A stretch of DNA of 64,000 bases from an uncultured Candidatus Saccharibacteria bacterium (lineage in GTDB: Bacteria; Patescibacteriota; Minisyncoccia; Minisyncoccales; JANBVM01): contig CAYVDD010000001.1 of the NCBI GenBank assembly GCA_964450805.1, positions 6,595 to 70,594 of the forward strand, written 5' to 3'. The notes under the pieces are model-generated. The model was not told the origin of the DNA, made no database searches, and saw nothing but the letters and a program-made list of their open reading frames with translations. This document shows, piece after piece, positions 32,903 through 45,902 of the stretch. The first letter of the stretch is position 1. Every line of letters begins with the position of its first letter. Position numbers and translations under genes: made by a program.

Positions 32903-32965
32903 AAACAGGTTCGGATGGCGTTTAGTTGGGGGAGCTGCTATCCCGAGCCAAGAGCTCGGGTTTTT
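32903..32965 (+). repeat. Junction element copy 1 (F)
   Basis: aaacaGGTTCGgatggcg..ggGGAGCT, then the hairpin cccgagccaagagctcggg (32942-32960) and ttttt. It is followed by TTGACA (32981-32986), 17 nt, then CATAAT (33004-33009). Confidence 0.7.
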
Positions 32966-33030
32966 GGTATAAACCATTACTTGACATTCCCAAAATCCTA
33001 ATTCATAATATATAACAGGTGGTTTAAAAA

Positions 33031-33261
33031 ATGAATGGAAAAGAAACCGTAAAACTTCGCTTAAAGAAAAAAAAGACTCTTATTAATTTTGAACCAGAGG
33101 GCGAGGAGAGATCTATTGTTTGGGAGATTGAAGAAGAATTAATCCCGTTTTCAGAAGGAGAAAGGTTATGGTGGCCCAATGGTCCTTTTAAAATTAAAGA
33201 AAGATACTGGAGTCTCAGAAGTGGGGTTTTGACATTAGTTTGCAACGTAAAAAGAGCCTAA
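33031..33261 (+). CDS. Hypothetical small protein
   Basis: An AGGTGG Shine-Dalgarno lies 10 nt upstream. The terminator hairpin actgacta-ttaa-tagtcagt lies at 33352-33380. Confidence 0.5.
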   Translation: MNGKETVKLRLKKKKTLINFEPEGEERSIVWEIEEELIPFSEGERLWWPNGPFKIKERYWSLRSGVLTLVCNVKRA

Positions 33262-33467
33262 TTAAATCTTATTTCCTTTCTTTTTTTAAGTCCTTTAAGA
33301 ATTAGAGGATTTAAATAAAGAAGATATTCTTAAGGAAATAGAAAAAATGAGACTGACTATTAATAGTCAGTTTTCGTTTTACATAAAAGAACTTTGAAAG
33401 TTATATAGGTATAAGTGCTGACAAAGTATATTTTAAAAAATTTACAATATTGCTATACTTTTAATAT

Positions 33468-33914
33468 ATGAGACTATGTAGTGCTTGTTTATTAGGAATA
33501 AAATGTGCTTGGGATGGAAAAGATAGGTATAAAAACGAAAAGGTAATAAATCTTTCTAAAAAAGAAATTATTATTCCCGTGTGTCCTGAGCAGCTGGGTG
33601 GATTACCGACACCAAGAAACCCCCAAGAAATTCAAGGTTATTCAGGGGAAAAGGTTTTAGATAAAAAGTGCAAGGTAGTAAATAAAGAGGGCGGGGATGT
33701 TACAAAGCAGTTTATCCAGGGAGCTCAAGAAGCATTGAGAATTGCAAAGATGCTCAATATTAAAGAGTTCATCGCAAAACAGAAAAGTCCTTCCTGTGGT
33801 TGTGGTAAGACATATGATGGGACTTTTTCTGGCGCATTAATTGAAGGAGACGGCGTGACAGCCGCTTTATTAAAAAGAAATGGAATAGAAGTCATTAGTG
33901 AAGAAAGTTTATGA
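33468..33914 (+). CDS. DUF523 family protein (TudS-like Fe-S desulfidase family)
   Basis: CSACLLGIKCAWDG, PVCPEQLGGLPTPRNP and KSPSCGCG. The extended -10 TGcTATACT (33451-33459) lies 8 nt before the ATG, suggesting a leaderless mRNA. Confidence 0.65.
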   Translation: MRLCSACLLGIKCAWDGKDRYKNEKVINLSKKEIIIPVCPEQLGGLPTPRNPQEIQGYSGEKVLDKKCKVVNKEGGDVTKQFIQGAQEALRIAKMLNIKEFIAKQKSPSCGCGKTYDGTFSGALIEGDGVTAALLKRNGIEVISEESL

Positions 33915-33968
33915 TTTGATTTTTTTATGGTTGATAAAAAAAAGCACAATAAAGCGCTTAGATTGATC

Positions 33969-34448
33969 TCAGTCCAGTCTGATTCTGTGAGGGACACCCG
34001 CGACCCAGATTTCAAGTTCATCGCTGCAAGAGTTTTGTATGTGATTTGATTCTTTGCATTTACTGCAATCTCTTTTGTGTTCACCGAGCTGGACCATACC
34101 GTGGCGTCCTATCCACGGATTAGCTGTAATATCTTTTCCCGTGTGTATTAATTCAGTTATGACTTTATCTGGAATTATTTTTTTACTCATTTGGCTGCAT
34201 ACCTGTTGGCATTTGTCGCATTCGTTCACAATAGAACAATAACCAAAGTTATGTTTTCCTATTAGCAGTAGACCATCTAGAGTTTTAAAAAAAGAAAGTA
34301 TTTTCTCTATGGTCGTTTCTTTTCTATGTATAAAGTCATAAGGATTTCTTTCTAAACCTTCTAATGATTCCATTTCTTTCATATTATCCACCTCAATTTT
34401 TATTTTAGCTATCTTAGGCATATCACCTTTTGGTTTTTTTGTCAACAA
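33969..34448 (-). CDS. Cys/His-rich hypothetical protein (only antisense gene in the array)
   Basis: 159-aa ORF with CDKCQQVC and CSKCKESNH clusters. The tracked start is a TTG, so the true start may be an internal Met. Confidence 0.4.
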   Translation of the reverse strand: MLTKKPKGDMPKIAKIKIEVDNMKEMESLEGLERNPYDFIHRKETTIEKILSFFKTLDGLLLIGKHNFGYCSIVNECDKCQQVCSQMSKKIIPDKVITELIHTGKDITANPWIGRHGMVQLGEHKRDCSKCKESNHIQNSCSDELEIWVAGVPHRIRLD

Positions 34449-34473
34449 ACAAATAGAGTCAACTCTTCAAATT

Positions 34474-34558
34474 TTTCTCTAATTTTCGTCCAATCTATAG
34501 TTCTGAACGCGTCCAACAGGGGGAGTTAGCTTAGCCCGAGCCAAGAGCTCGGGTTTTT
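34474..34558 (+). repeat. Junction element copy 2 (A)
   Basis: tttctctaattttcgtccaatctatAGTTCTgaacgCGTCCaacaggGGGAGTT, then the hairpin cccgagccaagagctcggg (34535-34553) and ttttt. It is followed by TTGACA (34569-34574), 16 nt, then CATAAT (34591-34596). Confidence 0.75.
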
Positions 34559-34602
34559 AGTTGTAGGCTTGACAAAATTTTCATAGTGTGCATAATTAGA
34601 AT

Positions 34603-34700
34603 AGATGATACTAGAACCCACCATAATAGAGGTGGAGCGCTGGTGAACAAAAGCCTGGGGGCACAACAAAAAAACAATGACCTCCCGGGCTCTTTTTTTT
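34603..34700 (+). ncRNA. Candidate small RNA (promoter-to-terminator unit without convincing ORF)
   Basis: It begins just after the 34569-34596 promoter. It has an internal hairpin ccacc-ataataga-ggtgg and a terminal stem gcctggggg/ctcccgggc followed by tctttttttt. The only ORF is 13 codons. Confidence 0.3.
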
Positions 34701-34827
34701 CAAATTCATAATTTCATATTGTGAGCTTGAAAAAGCCCGAAACTCCGCTAAGCGGGGTTTTTGTTTTGACTTTTTAATTAAAGCTAGTAATGTAAAAATA
34801 GTTAAGAAAATGAGGTGGTTCTTTTAA

Positions 34828-35220
34828 GTGAAGAAAACAGCAAAAACAAAAGACTTTTTAAGAGGATATTCCAAAAGAGATATTACTATTCGTTTTGATC
34901 CTGACAATTTAGAATTACTCCCGTGTCATTGTAAATATGATCCTGATCTTTCAACGAAAGAAAGAAATAAAGAAATAAATAAAGTAATGCTTCTGAAAGA
35001 GGTAGAGATACAGAATAAAGATGGTTCTTGGAGCCCTTACCCCAGTATTACTTGGTTGATGGAGGTAGAAGATGAAGACCAATTTTTAACAAAAGCATTA
35101 GTGAGGTTGACTGGAGAAAAAGAAATTACTGTTGTTTCTTCTTCTAACTGGGGACCAGATTCAGTACTTATGGATGCAGCCAGAGAGGTAGGTATATATA
35201 CAGAGACTATAGAAGCTTAG
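34828..35220 (+). CDS. Hypothetical protein
   Basis: GTG start with a GAGGTGG Shine-Dalgarno upstream. 130 aa, with its own terminator at 35244-35273. Confidence 0.5.
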   Translation: MKKTAKTKDFLRGYSKRDITIRFDPDNLELLPCHCKYDPDLSTKERNKEINKVMLLKEVEIQNKDGSWSPYPSITWLMEVEDEDQFLTKALVRLTGEKEITVVSSSNWGPDSVLMDAAREVGIYTETIEA

Positions 35221-35266
35221 AAGATAATATAGAGTTCTTTATTAGTGGTTTGAAATATAAGCCACT

Positions 35267-35402
35267 TTTTTTATTCTAAAGCCTCAATTAAATAGGTTCT
35301 AACATCGTCCGTCCCTCGGAACTAATTGTATAAAATTGCATATAATTGGATGTAATTGTATAGGGAAATTTATCAAGGCTCGAGTGGCAGCTCGGGTTTT
35401 TG
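35267..35402 (+). repeat. Junction element copy 3 (G, with internal insertion)
   Basis: ttattctaaagcctcaattaaataGGTTCTaacatCGTCCgtccctCGGA, then a ~55 nt AT-rich insert with aattgta repeats, then the hairpin ctcgag-tggcag-ctcggg (35379-35396) and a T-run. TTGACA follows at 35405-35410. Confidence 0.7.
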
Positions 35403-35472
35403 ATTTGACAAAAAAAAGAGTTGAAGTAAGATTAGCTATTAACAATAACAAAATAATGGAGAGTGTAGTTAT

Positions 35473-35784
35473 TTGCCTGTAAGAGTAAATAAAAGAGATA
35501 TAAATTGGGCTATTGTGATTATTGACCCTGAAGACGAAGATTCTAAGTTTGTTTTGGATAAACTAAAGGAGATAGGTATTAAATTTTCAATAGTAAGACT
35601 TGGACCTAAGCAGCATGGCTATAATGTAGAGCTTAGTCTTTTTGCCGAAGTTGGGGACTTTACGGAATTCTCAACTCACCTAAGGCCTCCTATCTTCGTA
35701 GTAGAACATTCATATTTCCCAGGCAAGGCTCCAAAAATCAGAATTTTCCAAGGGAAGATTCCTATAAGCCACGCTTTTGTTTAA
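35473..35784 (+). CDS. Hypothetical protein
   Basis: TTG start 9 nt after GGAGAG. 103 aa, with a terminator-like hairpin at 35817-35850. Confidence 0.4.
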   Translation: MPVRVNKRDINWAIVIIDPEDEDSKFVLDKLKEIGIKFSIVRLGPKQHGYNVELSLFAEVGDFTEFSTHLRPPIFVVEHSYFPGKAPKIRIFQGKIPISHAFV

Positions 35785-35866
35785 AAGAATTCAGATATTA
35801 AAATCATTATCCAATAAGCTGAGAGGACTATTCATCTCGGCTATTTTTTATTCCAGAGTTCTCACT

Positions 35867-35929
35867 AAACAGGTTCTAACATCGTCCGTCCCTCGGAGCC
35901 GCCAGCCCCGAGCCAAGAGCTCGGGTTTT
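35867..35929 (+). repeat. Junction element copy 4 (H)
   Basis: aaacaGGTTCTaacatCGTCCgtccctCGGAGCc, then the hairpin cccgagccaagagctcggg (35907-35925) and tttt. Promoters follow: TTGCTA-16-TATAAT (35951-35978) and TTGCCA-17-TATAAT (36017-36045). Confidence 0.75.
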
Positions 35930-36048
35930 GATTATAAACTAACATTTTCTTTGCTAGCACTAAGCTCCTGCCTATAATACTGTTTACGAAGCGGAAAAAA
36001 AATAAGGTTGTGGAATTTGCCAAGAGGCTAATTTTTTAGTATAATTCA

Positions 36049-36462
36049 TTGGTGAAACATAAGAAACAAAAAGAAATTCTCTCCTATATTTTGTCCCTTA
36101 AAGAAAGGGCAGAGAATTTACGTGAAGAACTTGATAGTTGGGAAGTGAAGCCTAAGATAAATAAGCGAATAAAGAGCGTAGACGGTAATTCAAAAGCTCT
36201 ACGAATAATAACCAAAATAGGTTCAAAGATAGAATTGACGGAAAGAGAAAAAAAACGATTAACAAGATTGATCAAGCGTAGACTAAGTTCACTTAAGAGA
36301 CATTTTCTATCTGTTTACAAATTAGTTCAAAAGAACCCTACTAAGATATGGAATAAAAGAATTAGAATTACTGAAAGAGAATTAGAAGAACGCATAGCTA
36401 TTTATGAAAATATTCTTCCATTAATATTTAGAAAAAAGTCTAAGACTTCAAAGAAGAAATAA
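36049..36462 (+). CDS. Lys/Arg-rich coiled-coil hypothetical protein
   Basis: 137-aa ORF starting at TTG/GTG. No recognisable domain. Confidence 0.4.
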   Translation: MVKHKKQKEILSYILSLKERAENLREELDSWEVKPKINKRIKSVDGNSKALRIITKIGSKIELTEREKKRLTRLIKRRLSSLKRHFLSVYKLVQKNPTKIWNKRIRITERELEERIAIYENILPLIFRKKSKTSKKK

Positions 36463-36480
36463 ATTTTTTAGCTTGGAAAG

Positions 36481-36583
36481 GCCCAAGACTTTCTCTAATT
36501 TCACCCCAATCAATGGTTCTGAAAGCGTCCAATAAAGGGAGCTCAGAAAAAAAATCGCCAGTATGGCGGTTTTTTGTTAGAAT
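36481..36583 (+). repeat. Junction element copy 5 (B)
   Basis: agactttctctaatttcaccccaatcaatGGTTCTgaaagCGTCCaataaaGGGAGCTc, then the hairpin aaaatcgcca-gta-tggcggtttt and the extended -10 TGtTAGAAT (36575-36583). Confidence 0.75.
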
Positions 36584-36589
36584 AGCAAT

Positions 36590-37231
36590 ATGAATAAGTT
36601 TAAATTAGTTTGTTTTGACGTAGACGGAACCTTGGTTGAGGGAATCTCTTGGGTTTGGTTAACTAAGGGCTTAGGTTGTTCGTCAGAGAAACATATTGAT
36701 ATTTTTAATCGTGCCACAAGAGGAGAAATTTCTTTTACTAAAGGTGAAAGAATGTTGACTAAAATGTACAAAGAGAGCGGTAACGCTACAATGAAATTTA
36801 TAAGAAAACTCTTTTCTGAAATTAAATTAAGGCCTGAAGCCAAAGAAATAATTTCATATCTGAAGAAGAAAAATTATAAGGTCTATCTTATTTCAGGAGC
36901 GATTGATATTTATATAGAAGAAATGGCTAAAAAGTTAAAAGTAGACGGGTTTTATGCTAACTCATCTTTGGAGTTTACCGAAGACGGCGTTCTTGAAAAA
37001 ATTTACTATAGAGATAACCAAGGAGAAGTAAAATTAGAACAGCTAACAAGCTTAATAAGAAAAATTGGAATAAAAATGAATGAAGTTGTCTTTATTGGGG
37101 ATAGCGATAACGATATAGAAGTTTTTAAAGAAACAGGGCATGGAGTTGCTGTTGAGCCTTCAAGTAAGAAGTTAAAAAGCATAGCTTGGAAAATAATAGA
37201 TTCATTAGAACAAATTAAAGAAATTTTATAA
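36590..37231 (+). CDS. HAD-superfamily hydrolase, subfamily IB (phosphoserine-phosphatase-like)
   Basis: Motif I CFDVDGTL, motif II LISGA, and motif IV GDSDNDIEVF. The ATG lies 6 nt after the -10, suggesting a leaderless mRNA. Confidence 0.7.
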   Translation: MNKFKLVCFDVDGTLVEGISWVWLTKGLGCSSEKHIDIFNRATRGEISFTKGERMLTKMYKESGNATMKFIRKLFSEIKLRPEAKEIISYLKKKNYKVYLISGAIDIYIEEMAKKLKVDGFYANSSLEFTEDGVLEKIYYRDNQGEVKLEQLTSLIRKIGIKMNEVVFIGDSDNDIEVFKETGHGVAVEPSSKKLKSIAWKIIDSLEQIKEIL

Positions 37232-37277
37232 AAACAATCAGATTCTTAATAAAATTGCCCTCTGGGTCTAATCTTTA

Positions 37278-37421
37278 GGTTCTATAAATCCTCTTAATCT
37301 CCACTAATTTCTCCGTCATCATCCCCATATACTCCCTATTTTCAAGCACCTCTATAACTTTTCTAATAATTGTTGAACTGGGGAGTTCTTGAAGTCTGAG
37401 ATTATTTCTCGGATTTTGACT
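37278..37421 (+). repeat. Junction element copy 6 (E, divergent long form)
   Basis: aGGTTCTataaatcc...ctGGGGAGTTCttgaag, then the hairpin tctgaga-ttattt-tctcgga and tttTGACT (37416-37421). Confidence 0.55.
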
Positions 37422-37451
37422 TTTTAATTATTTTAGATAATATAAAAAATT

Positions 37452-38012
37452 ATGATTAAAGTAGGAATAATAGGTCCGACAAATCTCCCAAAGTTGAGTA
37501 AATTAACGAATAAATCTAAAGATTTTCTACTAAAAAAAGCTCAAACCATCGGAAAGATTCTTGTTGAGAAAGATTGTGAACTCTGGATTAACAGTGATAA
37601 AGGAATGCTTGTAGCTGTTGGTAGGGCATATAAGAAATTTGGCGGAAAGAAACTTATTGTTTTGTATCCAGATAAGGGAGAACCTTGGCCAAAGAAGCAC
37701 GCACTGCCATATATAAAGTATGCCGATGAACTTAGAAAAGAAAAGGATTGGTTTTGGTCTAATTATAATGTTACAGCATTACCTGATTTATGTGTCTGTG
37801 TTGGCCTTAGTGCAGGTACTTTAAGTGAATTAGCCTATATTAAATGGAATTACACATTGAATCGTGGCAAGCTAAAGAAATTAATTGGAATCAAAGAACT
37901 TCTTAGAGATGGTAAATTTCCACCAGAGGTAGAGGTTGATATAAAGGAAATTATCCAGTATATGGAGAGAACAGAGGATTTAGGAGATTTTCTAGAGAAA
38001 TTTAAAGAGTAA
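37452..38012 (+). CDS. SLOG/LOG-like (TIGR00725-type) Rossmann-fold protein
   Basis: VGIIGPTN, GMLVAVGRAYKKFGGKKLIVLYP and CVGLSAGTLSELAYI resemble the GGxGTxxE-type SLOG pattern. Confidence 0.4.
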   Translation: MIKVGIIGPTNLPKLSKLTNKSKDFLLKKAQTIGKILVEKDCELWINSDKGMLVAVGRAYKKFGGKKLIVLYPDKGEPWPKKHALPYIKYADELRKEKDWFWSNYNVTALPDLCVCVGLSAGTLSELAYIKWNYTLNRGKLKKLIGIKELLRDGKFPPEVEVDIKEIIQYMERTEDLGDFLEKFKE

Positions 38013-38028
38013 TTCTATTTAAATAAAC

Positions 38029-38135
38029 ATTTTATTCATTTGAGTCTTTCAAGGAATTGAAAGACTCAAATGAGGAAGTAAGAAAAATACATCAAAAAAT
38101 GTCTATTAATCTATATAGGCAGTTTTTTGTTAGCA
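38029..38135 (+). repeat. ~105 bp direct repeat R1, copy 1
   Basis: It contains the perfect hairpin tttgagtctttcaa-ggaa-ttgaaagactcaaa, then tgaggaagtaagaaaaatacatcaaaaaatgtct...ataggcagttttttgtta. It is near-identical to 40490-40592. Confidence 0.85.
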
Positions 38136-38240
38136 TTAAAAACCCGACGAAATTGGGTTTTTAATTTTTACCTTGACTTTTCTGGAAAACTTTATAAGCT
38201 AATTTCAGAAAACATTTAAAATTAAGAGTGAGAGAATGAA

Positions 38241-38747: not shown

Positions 38748-38811
38748 AATCGTATATATACACATGTATATAACTACAGCCTTGATCTAATTAAAAACAA
38801 GGCATTTTTTT

Positions 38812-38940
38812 ATTCAAAATCCAGCTAAAATAGAGCCTAAATCTCTAAGACTTTCCCTAATTTCTCTCCAATCAACGGTTCTGACGCGTCCAATAGGGGA
38901 GCTCGTAAAAATCGCCAAGAAGGCGGTTTTTTGGCATAAT
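38812..38940 (+). repeat. Junction element copy 7 (C, full-length form)
   Basis: tattcaaaatccagctaaaatagagcctaaatctctaagactttccctaatttctctccaatcaacGGTTCTgacgCGTCCaatagGGGAGCTcgtaaaaatcgccaagaaggcggtttttt, then the extended -10 TGgCATAAT. Confidence 0.8.
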
Positions 38941-38984
38941 AAAGTAAAGGTAAAAATATTTTATAAATAGTAGAAAATAAAACT

Positions 38985-39340: not shown

Positions 39341-39408
39341 ACAGGTTCTAACCTCGCCCAGTCCCTGTAGTTTTTGAAGCCTTGTCAAGGTGGGGTTCTT
39401 GGTTGACG
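39341..39408 (+). repeat. Junction element copy 8 (I, degenerate)
   Basis: acaGGTTCTaacctCGCCCagtccctgtag..tttgaagccttgtcaaggtggggttcttggTTGACG. Confidence 0.55.
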
Positions 39409-39864: not shown

Positions 39865-39996
39865 ATTCAAAATCCAGCTAAAATAAGCCTAATTTTATAA
39901 GATTTTCCCTAATTTCACCCCAATTAATGGTTCTGAACGCGTCCAATAGGGGGAGCTTTGAAGCCCGAGATTGTTTCTCGGGTTTTTGGTTTGACA
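39865..39996 (+). repeat. Junction element copy 9 (D, full-length form)
   Basis: tattcaaaatccagctaaaataagcctaattttataagattttccctaatttcaccccaattaatGGTTCTgaacgCGTCCaatagGGGGAGCTttgaag, then the hairpin cccgaga-ttgtt-tctcggg, ttttt, and TTGACA (39991-39996). Confidence 0.8.
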
Positions 39997-40053: not shown

Positions 40054-40458
40054 ATGACTATTAAGAGATTTTATATATATGTAAGAGTTGAAGGAATAAA
40101 TAACATTTATGTTCTTAGAGAGATAATCATGAACACGCCAGTTTGTCCTAAACTTAGAAATAAATCTGAAAATTTGAATACTGAGTCAGAATTAGATGAT
40201 TTAATAGAATCAATTAAAAGAATATGTTTTGATCTTAGATGGAATGGTATGCTACTAATTTTCGGCATTCCATATAAAGATTATAGAGGAGGATTCACTT
40301 GGGTTAGCTCTATCAGTGAAGCCTTAGGAGAAAAGACAGAAAACATAGAGCTTGGAATTAGAAATCTATCTCAGGAAGAAAAAAATGTTGTTATAGAAGA
40401 CGTTTTTTCGTATGCTCAGGAGCAAGGACTCTTCTTATGTATATCTGAGCAAAAGTAG
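40054..40458 (+). CDS. Hypothetical protein
   Basis: 134-aa ORF. The true start could be the internal MNTPVCPKL. Confidence 0.4.
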   Translation: MTIKRFYIYVRVEGINNIYVLREIIMNTPVCPKLRNKSENLNTESELDDLIESIKRICFDLRWNGMLLIFGIPYKDYRGGFTWVSSISEALGEKTENIELGIRNLSQEEKNVVIEDVFSYAQEQGLFLCISEQK

Positions 40459-40489
40459 TTTATTCAAAAATTTAATTTTTTTTATTTCC

Positions 40490-40592
40490 TTTTATTCATT
40501 TGAGTCTTTCAAGGAATTGAAAGATTCAAATGAGGAAGTAAGAAAAATACATCAAAAAATGTCTTTAATATATATAGGCAGTTTTTTGTTAT
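40490..40592 (+). repeat. ~105 bp direct repeat R1, copy 2
   Basis: Same sequence as 38029-38135, with a few substitutions by eye (for example gactc to gattc in the hairpin). Confidence 0.85.
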
Positions 40593-40675
40593 TTTAAGTA
40601 TTAAAAAGCTTTTAACATCACTCCTATTTTTACCACCATTTCTTCAGGATTTTCAATAAAACCAAGCCCTTCAAA

Positions 40676-40707
40676 GGTTCGAAAATTGTGCGATAGAGGC
40701 GGTTTTT
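40676..40707 (+). repeat. Junction element copy 10 (M, highly degenerate)
   Basis: aaaGGTTCGaaaattgtgcgatagaggcggttttt. Only the GGTTC core and the ggcggttttt end are retained. Confidence 0.35.
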
Positions 40708-40720
40708 AATTTATTCACAA

Positions 40721-40748
40721 TTGACAATGTTTATTGTTGAAATATAAT
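40721..40748 (+). promoter_or_regulatory. Consensus promoter P1 of twin module 1
   Basis: TTGACA (40721-40726), 16 nt, then TATAAT (40743-40748). Confidence 0.6.
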
Positions 40749-40958
40749 TTCTGTAAGAGTAATTTTGTCGGGGCTGGTCTCTCGTCAATTACTTATCAAC
40801 CAACAGGATTCAATTGGCACAGGACAGGAAAAACTTATTTTCCTTAAAGCGTCAATGAGTCTTGACTGAAATGGCCAAGAAGAAAAAAAAGAAGAAGTAA
40901 ATTTACTTATTCTAAGAGGCGCCAAAAGGTGCCTCTTATTGATTTAATTTATTTACTA

Positions 40959-40986
40959 TTGACAGCATTATTGGATGAAATATAAT
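40959..40986 (+). promoter_or_regulatory. Consensus promoter P2 of twin module 2
   Basis: TTGACA (40959-40964), 16 nt, then TATAAT (40981-40986). The context gaaatataatt is the same as at P1. Confidence 0.6.
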
Positions 40987-40992
40987 TTTCTT

Positions 40993-41133
40993 ATGCAAAA
41001 GATTCTGCGAGTTGGTCGCGCAAGATCTTTTGTGAATAAAGATTTTTTACTAATAAGTCTTAAAAGAATGATTTTAGAATTCAAACTTATCCAAGAGGAA
41101 GAATGGGAAGAAGACGAGGAAGAAGAAGAGTAA
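40993..41133 (+). CDS. 46-aa micro-protein with basic N-half and poly-acidic tail (not in ORF track)
   Basis: The ATG lies 6 nt after the P2 -10 (leaderless geometry). Translation is MQKILRVGRARSFVNKDFLLISLKRMILEFKLIQEEEWEEDEEEEE. The terminator caaaagacagc-taatt-gctgtcttttg lies at 41152-41178. Confidence 0.35.
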   Translation: MQKILRVGRARSFVNKDFLLISLKRMILEFKLIQEEEWEEDEEEEE

Positions 41134-41214
41134 TGTTGATTAAATAAAGACCAAAAGACAGCTAATTGCTGTCTTTTGTCTTCAGGAGAAACACTGCCAG
41201 AGATTGAACTTATA

Positions 41215-41320
41215 AAACAGGTTTTAACATCGTCCGTGCCTCGGAGCAGACCAAGACGCTTTAGGCGTTAGTGCGACCGACAAACATAAAATCGCCATAA
41301 TGGTGGTTTTTTGATATAAT
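41215..41320 (+). repeat. Junction element copy 11 (J)
   Basis: aaaacaGGTTTTaacatCGTCCgtgcctCGGAGCa...aaaatcgccataatggtggtttttt, then the extended -10 TGaTATAAT (41312-41320). Confidence 0.7.
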
Positions 41321-41366
41321 TAAGAAATAAAGGTTTTCTAATTATTAACGAATTTAATATTATAAA

Positions 41367-42356
41367 ATGAATACATATTTTAGTAATAGTTCTATAAGAA
41401 GAGCTAGTTCCGTAAAAAACACTAATTCAGTTCAGATTTTTGTTAGATTATTTGTCTGGATAATTTCTTTTGTAATTTTAGGAATTATTTCGATGATGGC
41501 TAGAGGAGAGTCGGTTCAAGGCATAGAAAGCTTTCTATCATTAGGAATTCTTTATATTTTACTTAATGCTTGGCTAGCTAGTGTTATATCAGGCATGTTT
41601 CACATTCTTCCTGAATGGCAGAATATGGTTCTTTTGAAATTGGGAAAATTTGATAGTGTAAGAAAGGCTGGATTTTTCATAATTCCTCCTTTTGTTTATT
41701 CAATAGCATCTATCGTTGATATCAGAATTGAAACTCGTCAGGTTGAAGCAACTAATACCCTTACTAAAGATAATGTTCCAACAAAAGTAACAGCAGCTGT
41801 TGAATTTAGAATAGAAGACTCAAGAAAAGCTGTGATTGATGTTCAAAACTATAGACAATCAGTCATTTGGTTAGCTACCGAAGCTTTAAAGAATACAATC
41901 GGTAGCATGACTTTAAAAGAACTTCTTAGTGAGCGAGAGCAAATCGCTATTTCTTTAAAAGAACACATTGATAAAGGAGCGGTTGTTTACGGAATAGATG
42001 TTAGAGCGGTAAGAATTACTGATATTGATACGCCTCAGTCACTTATTGAAGAATTGGCCGTTATAGCTAGGGCTAGGAGAGCAGCTGAGGCTAAGAAAAT
42101 ACAAGCTGATGCTGAAGTTCAGGTTGCCAATAAGATTTTTCAGGCAAGCGAGATTCTAAAAAGAAGCTCTGGAGGCATGAGATTAAGAGAGCTTCAGGTT
42201 CTGAATGAGATGAGCAAAGAAGAAAGCTCAATGGTTATTGTGTATCCTTATGGTGATAGAGCAGGCCAAGGAATAGCTAATGCAGCAGCTGGAACGGAAA
42301 AAAGGGATGTAAAAGAAAAAAGTAAAGAGAATCAAGAACTTTTAAAACAAGATTAA
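41367..42356 (+). CDS. SPFH/band-7 (stomatin/prohibitin-like) membrane protein
   Basis: N-terminal TM helices, then VLLKLGKFDSVRKAGFFIIPPF...VDIRIETRQVEA..TKDNVPTKVTAAVEFRI and an A/E-rich coiled coil. Confidence 0.8.
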   Translation: MNTYFSNSSIRRASSVKNTNSVQIFVRLFVWIISFVILGIISMMARGESVQGIESFLSLGILYILLNAWLASVISGMFHILPEWQNMVLLKLGKFDSVRKAGFFIIPPFVYSIASIVDIRIETRQVEATNTLTKDNVPTKVTAAVEFRIEDSRKAVIDVQNYRQSVIWLATEALKNTIGSMTLKELLSEREQIAISLKEHIDKGAVVYGIDVRAVRITDIDTPQSLIEELAVIARARRAAEAKKIQADAEVQVANKIFQASEILKRSSGGMRLRELQVLNEMSKEESSMVIVYPYGDRAGQGIANAAAGTEKRDVKEKSKENQELLKQD

Positions 42357-42366
42357 TTTATCTATC

Positions 42367-42420
42367 AAACAGGTTCTAACATCGTCCTTTCCCCGGAGCT
42401 CGTAAAATCGTTTATTTTTT
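42367..42420 (+). repeat. Junction element copy 12 (K)
   Basis: aaacaGGTTCTaacatCGTCCtttcccCGGAGCTcgtaaaatcgtttatttttt. TTGACG-17-TATACT follows at 42454-42482. Confidence 0.7.
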
Positions 42421-42546
42421 AAAAGTAGCTTTTAAGTTAAGGACAAATAGTACTTGACGAGGTATAGTTATGGGTGTATACTCATAATAGATAATTATTA
42501 AAAAGGTCGGACTATTATTAAGTATTAAATTATTAAAGATAAAAAT

Positions 42547-42816
42547 ATGCCAAGATTTGACGGAACTGGTCCTTTAGGCTATGGCCCTGGTACTGGTTGG
42601 GGTTTAGGCCCTTGTGGCGGAGGTATGGCGTATGGGCGCAGAGGAAGAGGCAGAAGACGAGGATTTGGTTGGGGAAGGTTTTGGGGGGGATATTCTCCTA
42701 CTTATAGTCCTTCTAAAAAAGAAGAAACAGAAACACTTTTAGAAGAAGCAGAACTTCTAGAAGAGGAACTTAAAGCTATTAAATCTCGTTTATCTAAACT
42801 TAAAGGCCAAAAATAA
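42547..42816 (+). CDS. DUF5320 family protein
   Basis: MPRFDGTGPLGYGPGTGWGLGPCGGG, then a G/R-rich stretch and a C-terminal coiled coil. Confidence 0.7.
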   Translation: MPRFDGTGPLGYGPGTGWGLGPCGGGMAYGRRGRGRRRGFGWGRFWGGYSPTYSPSKKEETETLLEEAELLEEELKAIKSRLSKLKGQK

Positions 42817-42885
42817 AGAACTAATCTCGCCTTATATTAAATAAGGCGCTTTAGTTTAAAATTAAATAAAAAATCAAAAGAGATT

Positions 42886-43224
42886 ATGAAAATAGCAGTA
42901 AGCTCAACAAGCAAAAATATTGAAACTAATATTTCTGATGTCTTTGGAAGATGTCCTTATTTCATAATTGTTGAAATTGAAAATAAGAAAATAGAAAAAA
43001 CAGAAGCAATAAAGAACGAGGGCATTAATCAGACAAGCGGGGCTGGTATTTCCACTGCTCAATTAATGGCAGAAAAAGACGTTAAAGCTGTAATTACGGG
43101 AAATATAGGACCAAGAGCTTTGGATGTTTTGAACCAATTTGACATTGATATTTACTTTGGGAAAGGCGTGATAAAAAAACTTCTACAGAAGTTTATAGAC
43201 GGGAAGCTCAAAAAGATAAATTGA
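42886..43224 (+). CDS. NifB/NifX-family (dinitrogenase FeMo-cofactor-binding domain) protein
   Basis: MKIAVSS....SDVFGRCPYFIIVE...AVITGNIGPRALDVL. Confidence 0.7.
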   Translation: MKIAVSSTSKNIETNISDVFGRCPYFIIVEIENKKIEKTEAIKNEGINQTSGAGISTAQLMAEKDVKAVITGNIGPRALDVLNQFDIDIYFGKGVIKKLLQKFIDGKLKKIN

Positions 43225-43225
43225 T

Positions 43226-43585
43226 ATGAAAATTGTTGTCCCGACAAATTCTAGAAAGGGCTTAAATGATAAAGTAGCCGAGCATTTTGGTCGTTGTTTA
43301 ACTTATACTTTTCTTAATGAACAAGGGGAAGTAATAGAAATTATAGATAATACCAGCGAGCACATGGGTGGCGCGGGACTTCCACCAGAATTAATGAAAA
43401 AGCATGGTGCGGACACTTTATTATGTAAAGATATTGGTCCAAGAGCGATTGGTTTGTGTAAAGAGTTGGGAATTGATGTGTATGTACATCAGGCAGAAAC
43501 AGTGAAGGATATTTTTGAACTGTGGCAGAATAAAAAACTTAAGAAAGCAGGCGTAGAAGATGCCTGTAAAGAGCATAAAATATGA
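43226..43585 (+). CDS. NifB/NifX-family protein (second paralog)
   Basis: MKIVVPT...VAEHFGRCLTYTF...LLCKDIGPRAIGLC. Confidence 0.7.
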   Translation: MKIVVPTNSRKGLNDKVAEHFGRCLTYTFLNEQGEVIEIIDNTSEHMGGAGLPPELMKKHGADTLLCKDIGPRAIGLCKELGIDVYVHQAETVKDIFELWQNKKLKKAGVEDACKEHKI

Positions 43586-44454
43586 AAATAGCAGTAACAG
43601 GCGGAAAAGGAGGCACAGGTAAATCATTAGTTGCCACCTCCTTGGCCGTTGAATTTGCTAAAAATAACAAAACTGCTCTTTTGGATGTTGATGTTGAATG
43701 TCCAAATGATCATCTTCTTCTTTCTGTTAAAAGAAAGAAGTTTACTAAAATATACCAGCCCATACCAAAATGGGATTTTGATAAATGTACAAAGTGTGGT
43801 AAATGTGCCTCTGTTTGTAAGCAGAATGCAATTGTTTTTGTTAAAAATAAATACCCGGCATTTGTAAAAGATGTTTGTATTGGTTGTAAGGCTTGTATTG
43901 TTGCTTGTCCTCAAAATGCTATTTCTGAAGCCAAAAAAGAAATTGGCACAATTTATACAGGAAAAAACTATAATTTGATTTTAATTTCGGGAGAGCTTAA
44001 ATTAGGTGAACTGTCCTCTGGTGAAGTAGTAGCTGAAGTTAGAAAGCATTCTGAAAAAATCAACAAAAAATTAAAAAGCAAAATCATTTTAATAGATTCT
44101 GCAGCTGGAATTGGTTGTCCCGTCATTGCTTCATTGGTTGGCACTGATTATATTGTGGCGGTAACTGAACCAACACCCTCTGCCTTACATGATTTAAAAC
44201 GAGTTTTATACCTCGCCAACCATTTTCAAATTAAGCACGGAATTGTTATTAATAAATATGATTTAGCAAAGAATTTTTGTTTAGAGATAGAGAAGTTTGC
44301 TAAAATTAATAATATAGCAATTATTGGAAAGATTCCCTACAGGAAGGATTTTGTTGATGCGACTATAAAGATGAAACCAGTAACCAAGATAAATCCAGAT
44401 TATCAAGAGCTATTTCAGAAAATTATTAAACAAATAAAATTATCAATAAAATGA
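43582..44454 (+). CDS. MinD/Mrp-like P-loop ATPase with 2x[4Fe-4S] ferredoxin insert
   Basis: Deviant Walker A GGKGGTGKS, plus CTKCGKCASVCKQNAI and CIGCKACIVACPQNAI. An ATGA overlap links it to the upstream gene. Confidence 0.75.
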   Translation: MKIAVTGGKGGTGKSLVATSLAVEFAKNNKTALLDVDVECPNDHLLLSVKRKKFTKIYQPIPKWDFDKCTKCGKCASVCKQNAIVFVKNKYPAFVKDVCIGCKACIVACPQNAISEAKKEIGTIYTGKNYNLILISGELKLGELSSGEVVAEVRKHSEKINKKLKSKIILIDSAAGIGCPVIASLVGTDYIVAVTEPTPSALHDLKRVLYLANHFQIKHGIVINKYDLAKNFCLEIEKFAKINNIAIIGKIPYRKDFVDATIKMKPVTKINPDYQELFQKIIKQIKLSIK

Positions 44455-45500
44455 AGCAAAAGGTTGCAGCAATTTCAATACTGGCTAATATGATTTTAGC
44501 TGTGGGTAAATTAATAGCTGGTTTTATATCGGGCTCTGGCGCTATTTTTGCTGAAGGCCTGCATTCGGGAATGGATATATTGTCTTCTGCAATAAGTTTT
44601 ATTGGTATCAAAATTTCCAAAAAACCCGTAGATAAAAAGCATCCATATGGCCACTATAAGTTTGAGGTTATGGCTGGTTTTATTATAACTATCATTTTAT
44701 TTCTGACAGGGTTATTCATTGTAGTAGAATCAATCCGCGAGTTTAGAAATCCTTCTCCCGTAACTATTGGCCATTTAGCATTAGGAGTAATGCTGGCATC
44801 AGCCGTGATTAACGAAACAATGGCAAGATTAAAAATTAAATACGGTAAAAAAGAAAGTTCAGTTTCTTTGCTATCTGACGGGATTCATTCCAGAGTTGAT
44901 GTTTATACCTCACTGGTGGTTTTCGCAGGATTATTTCTAACAAAATACTGGATTTACAGCGATTCAGTTTTGGCTTTATTAATTGGTTTATATATTATCA
45001 AAGAATCTTTTTCATTAGGTAAAGAAGCAGTTGATTCCCTGCTTGATGTTTCAGCTGGCGGAGAAATAGAAGAAGAAATAAGCTCAATCGCTAAAGCACA
45101 AAATGTTCAACTTGATTCTTTGAAAACACAGAAAAAAGGTTCTGCTATAACTGCTAATTTGGAAATAAATCTGCCCAGTAATTTGAGTGTAGAAGAAGCA
45201 ACCAAAATTTCCAATAATTTAAGGGAGAAACTTATAAAAGAAATAGAGAAGCTTGAATATGTCGCTATTCAAATCACAAGCCACGAACTGGAAACTGGAT
45301 TTTATAAGCTTGGTTTTGGTCGTGGTTTTGGTTGGCAAAGGAGGGGTAGATTTAGAAGTAAAGTAAAAGAAGCAGCGGGCAAAGGGCCCGGCGGTTATTG
45401 TGTTTGCGAGAAATGTAATTATAAAACACCTCATCAAAGAGGGATTCCTTGTTTAAGCTTAAAATGTCCAACTTGTAATATAAACCTAAAAAGAGAATAA
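44451..45500 (+). CDS. Cation diffusion facilitator transporter fused to a G/R-rich plus zinc-ribbon tail
   Basis: CDF TM core (ANMILAVGKLIAGFISGSGAIFAEGLHSGMDIL, HSRVD) and a cytoplasmic domain. The tail is GFGRGFGWQRRGRF...GGYCVCEKCNYKTPHQRGIPCLSLKCPTCN. Confidence 0.75.
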   Translation: MKQKVAAISILANMILAVGKLIAGFISGSGAIFAEGLHSGMDILSSAISFIGIKISKKPVDKKHPYGHYKFEVMAGFIITIILFLTGLFIVVESIREFRNPSPVTIGHLALGVMLASAVINETMARLKIKYGKKESSVSLLSDGIHSRVDVYTSLVVFAGLFLTKYWIYSDSVLALLIGLYIIKESFSLGKEAVDSLLDVSAGGEIEEEISSIAKAQNVQLDSLKTQKKGSAITANLEINLPSNLSVEEATKISNNLREKLIKEIEKLEYVAIQITSHELETGFYKLGFGRGFGWQRRGRFRSKVKEAAGKGPGGYCVCEKCNYKTPHQRGIPCLSLKCPTCNINLKRE

Positions 45501-45501
45501 T

Positions 45502-45783
45502 ATGGCCAGACCAAGATTATTCCGAAGAATTCGGTTCAATCCAAACATAACTTATTTCAAACCTCAAGGTGTACCAATGAGATTTTTAGATATTGTTGAA
45601 TTAACTACTGAAGAGGTGGAAGCTTTAAGATTAAAAAACAGAAAAGACCTGAAACAAGTTGAATGTGCCAAACGAATGAAAACTTCCCAAAGCACTTTTC
45701 AGAGAATTTTATCATCGGCCTATGAAAAGGTTACAGATGCTTTAGTAGAGGGCAAGGCAATAAAGATAATAAAGACAGATTAA
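45502..45783 (+). CDS. DUF134 (UPF0251) HTH protein
   Basis: MARPRLFRRIRF.P....FKPQGVP......VELTTEEVEALRLKN...L.Q.ECAKRM.TSQSTFQRIL.SAYEKVTDALVEGKAIKI. Confidence 0.8.
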   Translation: MARPRLFRRIRFNPNITYFKPQGVPMRFLDIVELTTEEVEALRLKNRKDLKQVECAKRMKTSQSTFQRILSSAYEKVTDALVEGKAIKIIKTD

Positions 45784-45830
45784 TTGGAAAGGTATTTTAA
45801 TTATTCAAATACTGGAAGATTTTTCCAAAA

Positions 45831-45902
45831 TCAGGTTTTAATATTGTATCATTTCTAAAGCTGAGCTCAAAAATCGCCAAGAAGGCAATTCTTTGATATA
45901 AT
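45831..45902 (+). repeat. Junction element copy 13 (L, degenerate, last in array)
   Basis: tcaGGTTTTaatattgtatcatttctaaagctGAGCTCaaaaatcgccaagaaggcaattcttTGaTATAAT. Confidence 0.55.

What the first reader, a model, noticed from the sequence alone, without database searches (positions are those of the whole stretch)
32903..45902. Cassette-like array: 13 copies of a conserved junction module separating single genes or operons
Seen directly: between almost every gene from 32.9 to 45.9 kb the same module recurs in one orientation. It consists of a core GGTTCT(G)AAC-NN-CGTCC-N6-7-GGAGCT(C), a GC-rich hairpin plus T-run, and an outward promoter. The GGTTCT-like cores start at 32908, 34499, 35295, 35872, 36515, 37278, 38877, 39344, 39929, 40676, 41220, 42372 and 45834. 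Three hairpins are identical (cccgagccaagagctcggg at 32942, 34535 and 35907). The others are the cgcca..ggcgg and cccgagattgtttctcggg variants. The promoter is either TTGACA-16/17-TATAAT-like or an extended -10 TGnTATAAT. Each interval carries one unrelated small gene or one operon: DUF523, HAD, SLOG-like, mscL, SPFH, several hypothetical proteins, and the 6-gene DUF5320-DUF134 operon. Nearly all genes are on the plus strand. The layout resembles an integron or pdif-module array, with mobile cassettes bounded by a common site. However, each cassette has its own terminator and promoter, and no tyrosine recombinase is present. The only recombinase nearby is the serine recombinase at 21565-23172. 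This may be an undescribed cassette-accretion system or a lineage-specific insulator element.
Basis: partly seen in the sequence, partly recalled or inferred. Interest (0 to 1): 0.75.

Follow-up and report, generated by a model that had tools for sequence, protein, structure and literature searches.

The report
Serine-recombinase cassette array beside tRNA-Asn
The repeated junction between these small genes is one arm of the attachment site of the neighbouring large serine recombinase, so the region is a hotspot next to a tRNA-Asn gene where recombinase-borne elements have stacked up single-gene cassettes, much as an integron does but with different chemistry.

Summary
Ten solid copies, two decayed copies and one split copy of AAACAGGTTCT-N5-CGTCC-N7-GGAGC lie between 32.9 and 45.9 kb, all on the + strand. 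None occurs elsewhere in the 64 kb.

The core is not an integron attC, a dif site or a structured RNA. It is the attP-type left arm of the attachment site of the large serine recombinase (LSR) at 21565-23172. Four results support this:
- The LSR island (21578-32935) sits at the 3' end of tRNA-Asn, and joining its two ends restores the recombinase's normal C-terminal tail.
- A profile built only from database LSR tails finds exactly the junction cores in the window.
- GGTTC to GGAGC spans 28 nt in the junction core and 23 nt in tRNA-Asn. This matches the 5-bp attP/attB shift described for serine integrases.
- Other Patescibacteria genomes carry the same arrays after rpoD-tRNA-Asn, with LSR elements inside or in tandem. 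A relative with about 85% identical flanking proteins has entirely different cassettes.

I therefore read the region as an LSR-driven accretion array of attR-like junctions. It resembles the Dehalococcoides ssrA islands and SCC composite islands, but shrunk to single-gene, self-expressed cassettes. Active cassette shuffling is inferred, not shown.

The parts
21505..21577 (+). tRNA-Asn(GTT). Its 3' end, GGTTCGAGTCCTACCGCCGGAGC (21555-21577), is the attB-type left arm. Together with the island's left end it now forms attL.
   Evidence: ARAGORN and sequence. The rpoD-tRNA-Asn-array arrangement recurs in L098, L055, L058, L102, L034, L087, L069 and L206. GGTTC to GGAGC spans 23 nt in 37 of 40 tRNA-Asn genes.
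21565..23172 (-). Large serine recombinase, 535 aa. Its last four codons (LLRR*) are read from the tRNA-Asn acceptor and T stem.
   Evidence: Pfam Resolvase, Recombinase and Zn_ribbon_recom. About 7000 homologs exist, mostly unnamed metagenomic proteins; the few named ones are mostly Patescibacteria. The conserved ...YSQSPxLL is followed by context-dependent tails.
21578..32935 (.). Integrated LSR island of 11.36 kb. It holds the recombinase, HTH genes, an N6/N4 methylase, a CHAT-like protein, a 1210-aa protein and DUF2703.
   Evidence: Boundaries come from the tail reconstruction. Read on the minus strand, 21578... joined to ...32935 gives ...YAQSPTLLPQLNAIRTCLMSV*, matching LSR tails such as ...QPIWLRLLDDVRTCLV* (L097) and ...SPMLLRLLDDVRTCLM (P0021). 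The island is absent in the relative L206, where tRNA-Asn is followed directly by a promoter.
32908..32935 (+). Junction 1, the attR of the resident island (P arm GGTTCGGATGGCGTTTAGTTGGGGGAGC). It is followed by hairpin 32942-32960 and the promoter at 32981.
   Evidence: nhmmer E 2.8e-5. LSR-tail profile hit E 4e-4 on the minus strand..
34499..34526 (+). Junction 2, type B core. Conserved extension 34469-34498, hairpin 34535-34553, promoter at 34569.
   Evidence: (E 7e-5).
35295..35322 (+). Junction 3, type A core.
35872..35899 (+). Junction 4, type A core. Hairpin 35907-35925.
36515..36542 (+). Junction 5, type B core with extension 36485-36514. Hairpin 36555-36569 and extended -10 TGTTAGAAT.
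   Evidence: (best hit, E 5e-5).
37278..37420 (+). Junction 6, atypical. The GGTTCT half (37278) and the GGGGAGTT-plus-hairpin half (37380-37413) are about 95 nt apart.
   Evidence: Sequence and minus-strand frame. Not found by the profile.
38877..38902 (+). Junction 7, type B core with two 1-nt deletions. Extension 38847-38876, hairpin 38912-38926.
39344..39371 (+). Junction 8, decaying type A core.
39929..39956 (+). Junction 9, type B core with extension 39899-39928. Hairpin 39964-39982.
   Evidence: E 1.3e-4.
40676..40703 (+). Junction 10, decayed type B core.
   Evidence: nhmmer E 0.067. Member of repeat family D1 at 61%.
41220..41247 (+). Junction 11, type A core. Hairpin 41292-41306.
42372..42399 (+). 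Junction 12, type A core, upstream of the DUF5320...DUF134 operon.
   Evidence: (best hit). The operon's promoter and 5' UTR are homologous to L061, but the hairpin segment is not.
45834..45861 (+). Junction 13, decayed type A core. Hairpin-like 45874-45888.
   Evidence: nhmmer E 0.013..
45911..46171 (+). Gene for an 86-aa membrane protein that closes the array. It is conserved in relatives (84-89% identity) but sits in a different position relative to the DUF5320 operon.

Best explanation
**What it is.** The array is an accretion hotspot of a Patescibacteria-wide family of large serine recombinase (LSR) integrative elements that target the 3' end of tRNA-Asn. The repeated junction core (AAACA)GGTTCT-N5-CGTCC-N7-GGAGC is the attP-type left half-site, the P arm, of these elements. 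On the opposite strand it also encodes the last 12 to 25 residues of the recombinase.

**Shown:**
1. The 11.4-kb island at 21578-32935 is such an element. Its attL is at tRNA-Asn and its attR is junction 1. The crossover lies in or next to GGAGC.
2. Every junction in the array has the layout P arm, then crossover, then host-type right arm. The right arm is a hairpin or terminator followed by a promoter. This is the same layout seen directly after tRNA-Asn in genomes that lack an island.
3. The same LSR family is found beside tRNA-Asn, inside such arrays, and in tandem.
4. Cassette content between conserved flanks differs completely between related genomes.

**Inferred mechanism:**
- An LSR element integrates at tRNA-Asn or at a junction.
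- All junctions are attR-like and point the same way, so excision can use a nearer or a farther junction than the element's own.
- The element therefore either leaves behind or picks up units of the form [terminator-promoter-gene(s)-P arm].
- Repeated cycles stack small, self-transcribed, recombinase-less cassettes downstream of the tRNA.
- Some junctions are then frozen by decay.
For: **The core is conserved, arrayed sequence and not a structured RNA**
- The core is confined to 32.9-45.9 kb and to one strand.
- A scan of genome contigs found more than 114 loci against about 9 expected by my own estimate. Nearly all are Patescibacteria.
- These loci hold 244 copies in one-directional arrays. 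Only about 35 nt are conserved.
- No RNA structure or covariation was found in the core and there is no Rfam match.

**The array is anchored at tRNA-Asn**
- dnaG-rpoD-tRNA-Asn precedes arrays in at least 8 other genomes.
- The ...GGAGC of tRNA-Asn is followed by the same hairpin, T-run and promoter layout as the ...GGAGC of the motif.

**The core belongs to the LSR**
- The window's LSR ends ...SPTLL|RR* inside the tRNA. Joined to junction 1 it reads ...SPTLLPQLNAIRTCLMSV*, matching L097 (...WLRLLDDVRTCLV*).
- Of the 120 best LSR homologs, about 88 have tails that are reverse translations of tRNA T-arms (..RGQDSNLQP, or a stop). About 26 have motif-type tails (LLRLLDDVRTCLM; LLPVLDAFRMVNWKKIKEE), which correspond to window types A and B.
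- A profile built only from those database tails gives the junction cores as its 10 best hits in the six-frame translation of the window, with E from 5e-5 to 0.4.

**The spacing fits serine-integrase site architecture**
- GGTTC to GGAGC spans 28 nt in 176 of 178 cores and 23 nt in 37 of 40 tRNA-Asn genes.
- This equals the 5-bp inward shift of the zinc-ribbon-domain motif in attB relative to attP described for serine integrases (PMC3783163).

**LSR elements occur inside arrays and in tandem**
- An LSR element sits inside an array in L201.
- Two LSR islands lie in tandem after tRNA-Asn in L203.
- Remnants of LSR 3' ends occur at some junctions elsewhere.

**Cassettes turn over**
- L206 has rpoD 85% and DegV 86% identical to the window. 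It has no island and 6 junctions, and none of the window's cassettes except the terminal 86-aa gene.
- DUF523 and DUF5320-DUF134 occur as motif-bounded cassettes in other arrays with other neighbours.
- One cassette protein is an ORFan among 5.8 billion proteins.
Against: - The right-hand side of the junctions shows almost no sequence conservation. I could not identify a second half-site, although a serine recombinase dimer normally reads both halves.
- Canonical serine integrases do not recombine attP with attR or attL. The in-array and tandem arrangements (L201, L203) therefore need either non-canonical pairings or a directionality factor that I did not identify.
- Homology breakpoints between shared cassettes in different genomes are not sharp. 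Some begin before the upstream core, and others begin only at the T-run or promoter. The exact exchange point for LSR-less cassettes is therefore not demonstrated.
- No closely related strains or reads were available, so no excision or integration event of a small cassette was observed.
- Arrays are absent downstream of rpoD-tRNA-Asn in most Patescibacteria loci sampled from metagenomes.
Confidence: 0.75

Rival explanations
1. Graveyard of scars. Each junction is the attR left by a separate full-length LSR island. Each island later lost its recombinase and most of its cargo through ordinary deletions. The small cassettes are leftovers and are no longer moved by any site-specific reaction.
For: - Several junctions in the window are decayed (40676, 45834, 39344, 37278).
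- In other loci, about 15 codons of the LSR 3' end survive next to some cores (L049, L057, L096, L112). This shows that recombinase genes are lost by internal deletion.
- Homology breakpoints between shared cassettes are ragged.
Against: - Random deletion would not leave a terminator hairpin and a promoter directly after most P arms. The T-run peaks at +25 to +34.
- It would not produce the same two hairpin families at many junctions and in another genome.
- The window array has intact, densely packed small ORFs and no recombinase fragments.
- The conserved blocks of the core stay invariant while N5 and N7 vary. This is not what uniform decay would give.
Confidence: 0.15
2. Host element first. 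The core plus hairpin plus promoter is a host-encoded intergenic module, such as a 3'-end or terminator-promoter 'insulator' or a protein-binding site used for gene expression. The LSR elements have merely evolved to target and mimic it.
For: - The module always sits between a gene's end and the next promoter, in one orientation.
- Terminators are enriched.
- The core's three blocks are about one helical turn apart.
- A solitary copy occurs outside the tRNA-Asn locus in L208.
Against: - The core is absent from the other 51 kb of the window, including many ordinary intergenic regions.
- Only about 35 nt are conserved, with no RNA structure.
- The distance from core to promoter varies from about 35 to 130 nt.
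- The core mirrors the tRNA-Asn end with the exact 5-nt attP/attB offset and carries the recombinase's reading frame. A recombination-site origin explains both; an expression signal explains neither.
Confidence: 0.07
3. An integron-like or pdif-like array run by a tyrosine recombinase (IntI or Xer) encoded elsewhere in the genome.
For: - Cassette size, single orientation, unrelated cargo and ORFan content resemble chromosomal integrons.
- From memory, the left part of the core resembles the R''-L'' boxes of an attC.
Against: - No Phage_integrase domain was found in any of the 70 window ORFs scanned against Pfam.
- No recurrent recombinase other than the LSR was found among 714 ORFs in the 114 motif loci plus the window.
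- There is no R'/L' partner or imperfect palindrome around the core.
- All sites share one orientation, unlike the alternating pdif sites.
- The cassettes have their own promoters.
Confidence: 0.02

Closest known systems
Dehalococcoides ssrA-specific genomic islands (ssrA-GIs) with the CcrB-like serine recombinase DsiB (McMurdie et al. 2011, PMC3146451)
   Same: - A large serine recombinase of about 540 aa lies on the reverse strand next to attL.
- Integration is at the 3' region (T-loop side) of a tRNA-like gene.
- Many islands lie in tandem downstream, each closed by a repeat related to the target's 3' end.
- A further conserved motif sits next to the repeat and does not match the target gene.
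- Islands without an integration module are interpreted as cis-mobilisable by accretion.
   Different: - The target here is tRNA-Asn, not tmRNA, and the host is Patescibacteria.
- The units are mostly single genes of 0.2-1.6 kb with their own promoter and terminator, rather than multi-gene islands. There are up to 8 junctions per 8 kb.
- The repeat is not a copy of the target. It is an attP-type arm 5 nt longer than the target arm.
- No second small recombinase (a DsiA/CcrA equivalent) is seen.
SCC / SCCmec composite islands and pseudo-SCC elements at rlmH (orfX) in staphylococci (CcrAB/CcrC large serine recombinases). From general knowledge, and as summarised in PMC3146451.
   Same: - Serine-recombinase elements stack in tandem at one conserved chromosomal site.
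- Recombinase-less units bounded by the site repeats persist and can be moved in trans.
   Different: - The SCC target is a protein-gene 3' end.
- SCC units are kilobases to tens of kilobases long.
- The SCC repeats are short, identical integration-site sequences.
- SCC does not have integron-like single-gene density.
Serine-integrase attP/attB architecture (Rutherford et al. 2013, PMC3783163)
   Same: [quoted passage not shown] Here AGGTTC lies 28 nt from the end of GGAGC in the core and 23 nt from it in tRNA-Asn, while the proximal GTCC-N7-GGAGC segment is shared.
   Different: - The right half-sites (P' and B') were not resolved here.
- The attP left arm lies inside the recombinase's own coding sequence.
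Integrons (IntI, attI, attC cassettes)
   Same: - A one-directional array of small, unrelated, often ORFan cassettes next to a fixed entry point.
- Content differs between relatives.
   Different: - The enzyme is a serine, not a tyrosine, recombinase, and it travels on the mobile element rather than sitting fixed beside the array.
- The sites are not folded attC hairpins.
- The anchor is a tRNA gene.
- Each cassette has its own promoter and terminator.
Tycheposons of Prochlorococcus (Hackl et al., bioRxiv 10.1101/2020.12.28.424599)
   Same: - Cargo elements integrate at tRNA genes.
- Newer elements push older ones into an island.
- Partial-tRNA repeats and degenerate remnants accumulate.
   Different: - Most tycheposons use tyrosine recombinases (910 of 937).
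- Their repeats are partial tRNA copies.
- Their elements are larger and often carry replication genes.

Membership tests
Large-serine-recombinase integrative elements with tandem accretion (ssrA-GI / SCC type) | A large serine recombinase (Resolvase + Recombinase + zinc-ribbon domains) encoded at one end of the element, next to attL | tested here: met
   Pfam hits on 21565-23172(-). The gene abuts and overlaps the tRNA-Asn 3' end.
Large-serine-recombinase integrative elements with tandem accretion (ssrA-GI / SCC type) | Site-specific integration at one conserved chromosomal target | tested here: met
   - The same family sits at the tRNA-Asn 3' end in the window, L197, L199 and L203.
- About 88 of 120 homologs have tRNA-derived C-terminal tails.
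Large-serine-recombinase integrative elements with tandem accretion (ssrA-GI / SCC type) | Element bounded by related att sequences. The far boundary, joined to the near one, reconstitutes attP. | tested here: met
   The joined ends restore the family's C-terminal tail in frame. An independent tail profile hits junction 1 at E 4e-4.
Large-serine-recombinase integrative elements with tandem accretion (ssrA-GI / SCC type) | Several units in tandem at the target, including units without a recombinase | tested here: met
   - The window has 12-13 junctions.
- L203 has two LSR islands in tandem.
- L201 has an LSR element followed by six LSR-less units.
Large-serine-recombinase integrative elements with tandem accretion (ssrA-GI / SCC type) | Demonstrated excision or integration (circular intermediate, empty site) | not testable with these tools
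   No reads or strains were available. The only indirect evidence is L206, which has an unoccupied tRNA-Asn site and a different array.
Serine-integrase att sites (attP/attB half-site rule) | [quoted passage not shown] | tested here: met
   28 nt in 176 of 178 cores against 23 nt in 37 of 40 tRNA-Asn genes. The rule is as stated in PMC3783163.
Serine-integrase att sites (attP/attB half-site rule) | Two half-sites in inverted orientation around a central dinucleotide | tested here: inconclusive
   - The P' arms of three LSR elements share nAnnT-GG at +5 to +8, and the window's has GGAC mirroring CGTCC about a centre inside GGAGC.
- The B' arms show almost no conservation.
Integron | An IntI tyrosine recombinase adjacent to the array | tested here: not met
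   No Phage_integrase hit in any of the 70 window ORFs scanned against Pfam. None among the recurrent protein clusters of the 114 motif loci plus the window.
Integron | attC sites: R''-L''...L'-R' imperfect inverted repeats that fold as a hairpin | tested here: not met
   - The core has no inverted partner.
- RNAalifold finds only 3 invariant pairs at -0.94 kcal/mol.
- The nearby hairpins are perfect GC stems followed by a T-run, that is, terminators.
- No attC covariance model was available to run.
pdif / Xer modules | 28-nt XerC-spacer-XerD sites with dyad symmetry, alternating in orientation around modules | tested here: not met
   All cores share one orientation, and there is no dyad symmetry in the core.
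Genome-wide intergenic repeats (REP/BIME, MITE, generic terminator-promoter repeat) | Dispersed over ordinary intergenic regions, usually in both orientations | tested here: not met
   - There are no copies in the other 51 kb of the window.

The most novel reading that the evidence does not exclude
Patescibacteria may possess a working, serine-recombinase-based functional analogue of the integron. In this reading a mobile LSR 'shuttle' element integrates at tRNA-Asn or at any junction. By choosing among the many same-direction attR-like junctions when it leaves, it captures, delivers and reorders self-expressed single-gene cassettes of the form [terminator-promoter-gene-P arm]. This would make the tRNA-Asn locus the main gene-exchange platform of these tiny genomes.
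Probability: 0.35. Interest if true: 0.8.

Novelty: new variant of a known kind. Interest (0 to 1): 0.6.

Why it matters
- **Gene flow in Patescibacteria.** Patescibacteria (CPR) have tiny genomes and few recognised mobile elements. A recombinase family with thousands of members that builds integron-like arrays of ORFan, often membrane or secreted, proteins beside tRNA-Asn would be a major route of gene flux and of surface or defence variation in this phylum.
- **A computed att-site pair.** The tRNA-Asn 3' end is the attB arm, and the junction core plus the LSR 3' end is the attP. This pair shows the 5-bp half-site rule across hundreds of natural sites, which is useful to people who mine serine integrases as genome-engineering tools.
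- **Annotation.** The C-termini of these recombinases depend on where the element sits. The short conserved 'ORFs' and repeats between the cassettes are att arms, not genes or small RNAs.

Tried and rejected
- **Integron attC.** I looked for an R'/L' partner of the core downstream and upstream and found none.
- **tRNA-like or structured RNA.** No T-arm pairing, no Rfam hit and no covariation.
- **Independent minus-strand gene fragment.** The synonymous-looking differences between type B copies first suggested an independent gene. They are explained by the core being the LSR tail.
- **Recurrent proteins near arrays.** The largest cluster is a family of Cys-rich secreted or membrane proteins, which are cargo and not an enzyme.
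- **Exact look-up of the window's rpoD.** It is not on record.
- **Scan of 80 metagenomic rpoD loci.** rpoD-tRNA-Asn is common but arrays are rare, and no close relative turned up.
- **Precise cassette breakpoints from cross-genome homology.** The sequences are too diverged and the breakpoints are ragged.
- **L208 insertion near the DUF5679 gene.** The flanks could not be aligned, so the boundaries are unresolved.
- **Right half-site (B') motif search.** No conserved positions.
- **Homolog search of cassette 35473-35784.** It matches only itself.
- **Viral-contig scan with the LSR.** Only two 38-40% relatives, neither with the motif.
- **Literature.** I found no paper describing this system in Patescibacteria.

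Full report
**1. Observation**

The region between 32.9 and 45.9 kb contains a repeated junction.
- A degenerate 16-mer, GGTTCTRAMMKCGTCC, occurs 11 times with up to 3 mismatches, against 1.7 expected.
- An nhmmer profile gives ten hits with E below 1e-4 and two weak ones, all on the + strand. Nothing credible is found in the remaining 51 kb.
- The repeat finder separates two subtypes. Type A is AAACAGGTTCTAACATCGTCCGTCCCTCGGAGC. Type B is GGTTCTGAACGCGTCCAATAGGGGGAGC preceded by about 30 conserved nt.
- The copy at 37278 is split, and 40676 and 45834 are decayed.
- The identical hairpins are confirmed, terminator-like sites are enriched (22 against 7.1 +/- 2.8), and the five best promoter matches lie in junction regions downstream of a junction hairpin, three of them directly after it.
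- The gene calls are right.

**2. Distribution**

I scanned one genome per species with an exact pattern, GGTTCTRAMMKCGTCC-N7-GGAGC.
Nearly all are Patescibacteria MAGs (Parcubacteria, Nealsonbacteria and Paceibacteria labels).
- The profile finds 244 copies in these loci, up to 8 per 8 kb, always in one orientation within a locus.
- Only about 35 nt are conserved across all copies.
- The core has no conserved RNA fold: three invariant pairs, -0.94 kcal/mol and no covariation. There is no Rfam match.

**3. Anchor**

Protein synteny shows that the window's dnaG (18516-20240), rpoD (20245-21459) and tRNA-Asn (21505-21577) precede arrays in the same orientation in L098/L028, L055, L058, L102, L034, L087 and L069. 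DegV (48041-48913) lies at the far side of the region in L056 and in the window.

In genomes without an island, the tRNA-Asn end ...GGTTCGA(A/G)TCCTACCnnCGGAGC is followed directly by a hairpin, a T-run and a promoter. This is exactly what follows ...GGAGC of the junction core. The core and the tRNA end therefore occupy equivalent positions.

**4. The recombinase link**

The large serine recombinase (LSR) at 21565-23172(-) ends ...YAQSPTLL-RR*. Its last four codons are read from the tRNA's acceptor and T stem.
- If the island's left end (21578...) is joined to junction 1 (...32935), the minus-strand frame continues as ...SPTLLPQLNAIRTCLMSV*.
- This matches the C-terminus of an LSR that abuts a core in L097 (...QPIWLRLLDDVRTCLV*) and one in L047.
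- A database search found about 7000 homologs. All share ...Y(S/A)QSPxLL and then diverge into two kinds of tail.
- About 88 of the best 120 have tails that are reverse translations of a tRNA T-arm (RGQDSNLQP, RGSDSNRRP, or an early stop from CTA).
- About 26 have tails of the form LLRLLDDVRTCLM or LLPVLDAFRMVNWKKIKEE. These correspond to the minus-strand translations of window types A and B, including type B's upstream extension.
- A profile built from those database tails alone returns, as its ten best hits in the six-frame translation of the whole window, exactly the junction cores (E from 5e-5 to 0.4).

So the junction core is the element-side left arm (P arm) of the LSR attachment site, and it overlaps the 3' end of the recombinase gene. 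Three points argue that selection acts on the DNA site rather than on the peptide. The conserved blocks are invariant DNA, including third codon positions. The variable N5 and N7 segments change amino acids freely. And the blocks are shared with the tRNA.

**5. Site architecture**

GGTTC to the end of GGAGC spans 28 nt in 176 of 178 cores and 23 nt in 37 of 40 tRNA-Asn genes. The proximal GTCC-N7-GGAGC part is common to both.

Rutherford et al. (PMC3783163) showed that the zinc-ribbon-domain motif of serine integrases lies 5 bp closer to the crossover in attB than in attP, while the recombinase-domain region is shared. The core therefore behaves as an attP-type half-site and the tRNA end as an attB-type half-site of the same enzyme.

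The tRNA remains intact, and the shared sequence between the two arms near the joint is GGAGC. The crossover therefore lies in or immediately next to GGAGC. A mirror GGAC in the window's P' arm places the centre inside GGAGC, but this is tentative.

**6. What the junctions are**

Every junction has the layout P arm, then crossover, then a host-type right arm (hairpin or terminator followed by a promoter). That is the structure of an attR.
- LSR elements of this family occur at the tRNA in the window and in L197 (88% identical recombinase, different cargo).
- One sits inside an array in L201. There a core forms the LSR's tail, and six LSR-less cassettes follow.
- Two sit in tandem in L203, after a tRNA-Asn that carries an insert.
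- In some other loci, about 15 codons of an LSR 3' end survive beside a core.

**7. Turnover**

L206 has rpoD 85% and DegV 86% identical to the window.
- It has no island, and its tRNA-Asn is followed directly by a promoter.
- It has six junctions and seven cassettes in 6 kb.
- None of its cassettes is shared with the window except the closing 86-aa gene.

Other comparisons point the same way.
- In L207 and L208 the 86-aa gene lies before the DUF5320 operon, whereas in the window it lies after.
- DUF523 is a single-gene, core-bounded cassette in CP179887.1. DUF5320-DUF134 is a two-gene cassette in L061.
- Cassette 35473-35784 has no homolog among 5.8 billion proteins.
- The same hairpin families occur at junctions of both genomes although the cassettes differ.

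**8. Mechanism (inferred)**

An LSR element integrates at tRNA-Asn or at a junction. All junctions are attR-like and point the same way, so excision can pair attL with a nearer or a farther junction than the element's own. The element then leaves behind or carries off units of the form [right arm-promoter-gene(s)-P arm].

This account explains several features:
- LSR-less cassettes each end in a P arm.
- The tRNA is followed by a junction-type right arm.
- Cassettes captured from the tRNA-proximal slot share the tRNA's terminator hairpin, which accounts for the three identical copies.
- Most arrays lack a recombinase.

Four weaknesses remain.
- The right arms show almost no conserved sequence.
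- Canonical serine integrases do not pair attP with attR or attL.
- No directionality factor was identified.
- Cross-genome homology breakpoints are ragged: left ends at -21 to -5 or +36 to +64 relative to the core, and right ends never beyond +17.

A pure 'scar graveyard' reading therefore remains possible for many junctions.

**9. Comparison with known systems**

The closest described system is the Dehalococcoides ssrA islands. They have a CcrB-like 540-aa serine recombinase on the reverse strand next to attL. Tandem islands downstream of a tRNA-like gene are each closed by a repeat with an adjacent conserved motif. Integrase-less units there are interpreted as cis-mobilisable by accretion. 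SCC composite islands and tycheposons are further parallels.

Integron and pdif membership fails on the enzyme and on site structure (see the membership table).

Three things are new here:
- the host phylum and the target;
- the shrinking of units to self-expressed single-gene cassettes at integron-like density;
- a P arm that lies inside the recombinase's own coding sequence and shows the 5-bp attP/attB rule across hundreds of natural copies.

I found no paper describing this in Patescibacteria.

**10. Verdict**

I classify the feature as a new variant of a known kind, with interest 0.6. Confidence is 0.75 that the cores are LSR attP-type arms and that the array is an LSR-driven accretion locus. 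I put the probability that the small cassettes are actively shuffled as an integron-like system at about 0.35.

Noticed in passing
window 38030-38104 and 40490-40564 (continuing about 40 nt further): A 75-nt repeat, 99% identical, with a long AT-rich hairpin. It lies downstream of two unrelated cassette genes (37452-38012 and 40054-40458). It is unrelated to the junction core. There is a weak, sub-threshold Rfam STnc370 match at 38098-38169.
   Followed up: no
window 40721-40900 and 40959-41133: A duplicated module with a perfect TTGACA-16-TATAAT promoter. Each copy is followed by a tiny ORF (a poly-Lys peptide; a 52-aa peptide with a poly-Glu tail) and a strong terminator at 40913-40938.
   Followed up: no
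window 37278-37420: A split junction. The two halves of the core are separated by about 95 nt that keep the minus-strand frame open (ELP...33 aa...IYRT*). This may be a variant recombinase tail or an insertion into a core.
   Followed up: partly
L203 about 18100-18480 (reverse strand): The tRNA-Asn gene next to the second LSR is interrupted in its anticodon loop by an insert of about 270 nt (a possible intron). ARAGORN does not call it.
   Followed up: no
window 25777-32882: The cargo of the LSR island looks defence-like: an N6/N4 DNA methylase, a 277-aa unknown, a CHAT-like protein, a 1210-aa protein and DUF2703. Related LSR islands carry MmeI-like, type I R-M, OLD-nuclease or MvaI/BcnI systems.
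   Followed up: partly
window 32942, 34535, 35907; L206 about 6745: The hairpin CCCGAGCCAAGAGCTCGGG is identical three times in the window and differs by 1 nt in a relative whose cassettes are all different. The right-arm hairpins therefore fall into a few families that are conserved independently of the cargo.
   Followed up: partly
L208 15950-16460 (orthologous to window 53870-54050): A solitary junction core lies inside an insert of about 400 nt between the DUF5679-family gene and a metallo-beta-lactamase-fold gene, far from tRNA-Asn. The window and L207 lack this insert.
   Followed up: partly
window 34600-34790: A non-coding stretch after the promoter at 34569, with its own terminator (34739-34761) and a GC-rich segment. 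It has no Rfam match and could be a small RNA or a decayed cassette.
   Followed up: no
window 35473-35784: The cassette protein (103 aa) matches only itself among 5.8 billion database proteins.
   Followed up: yes
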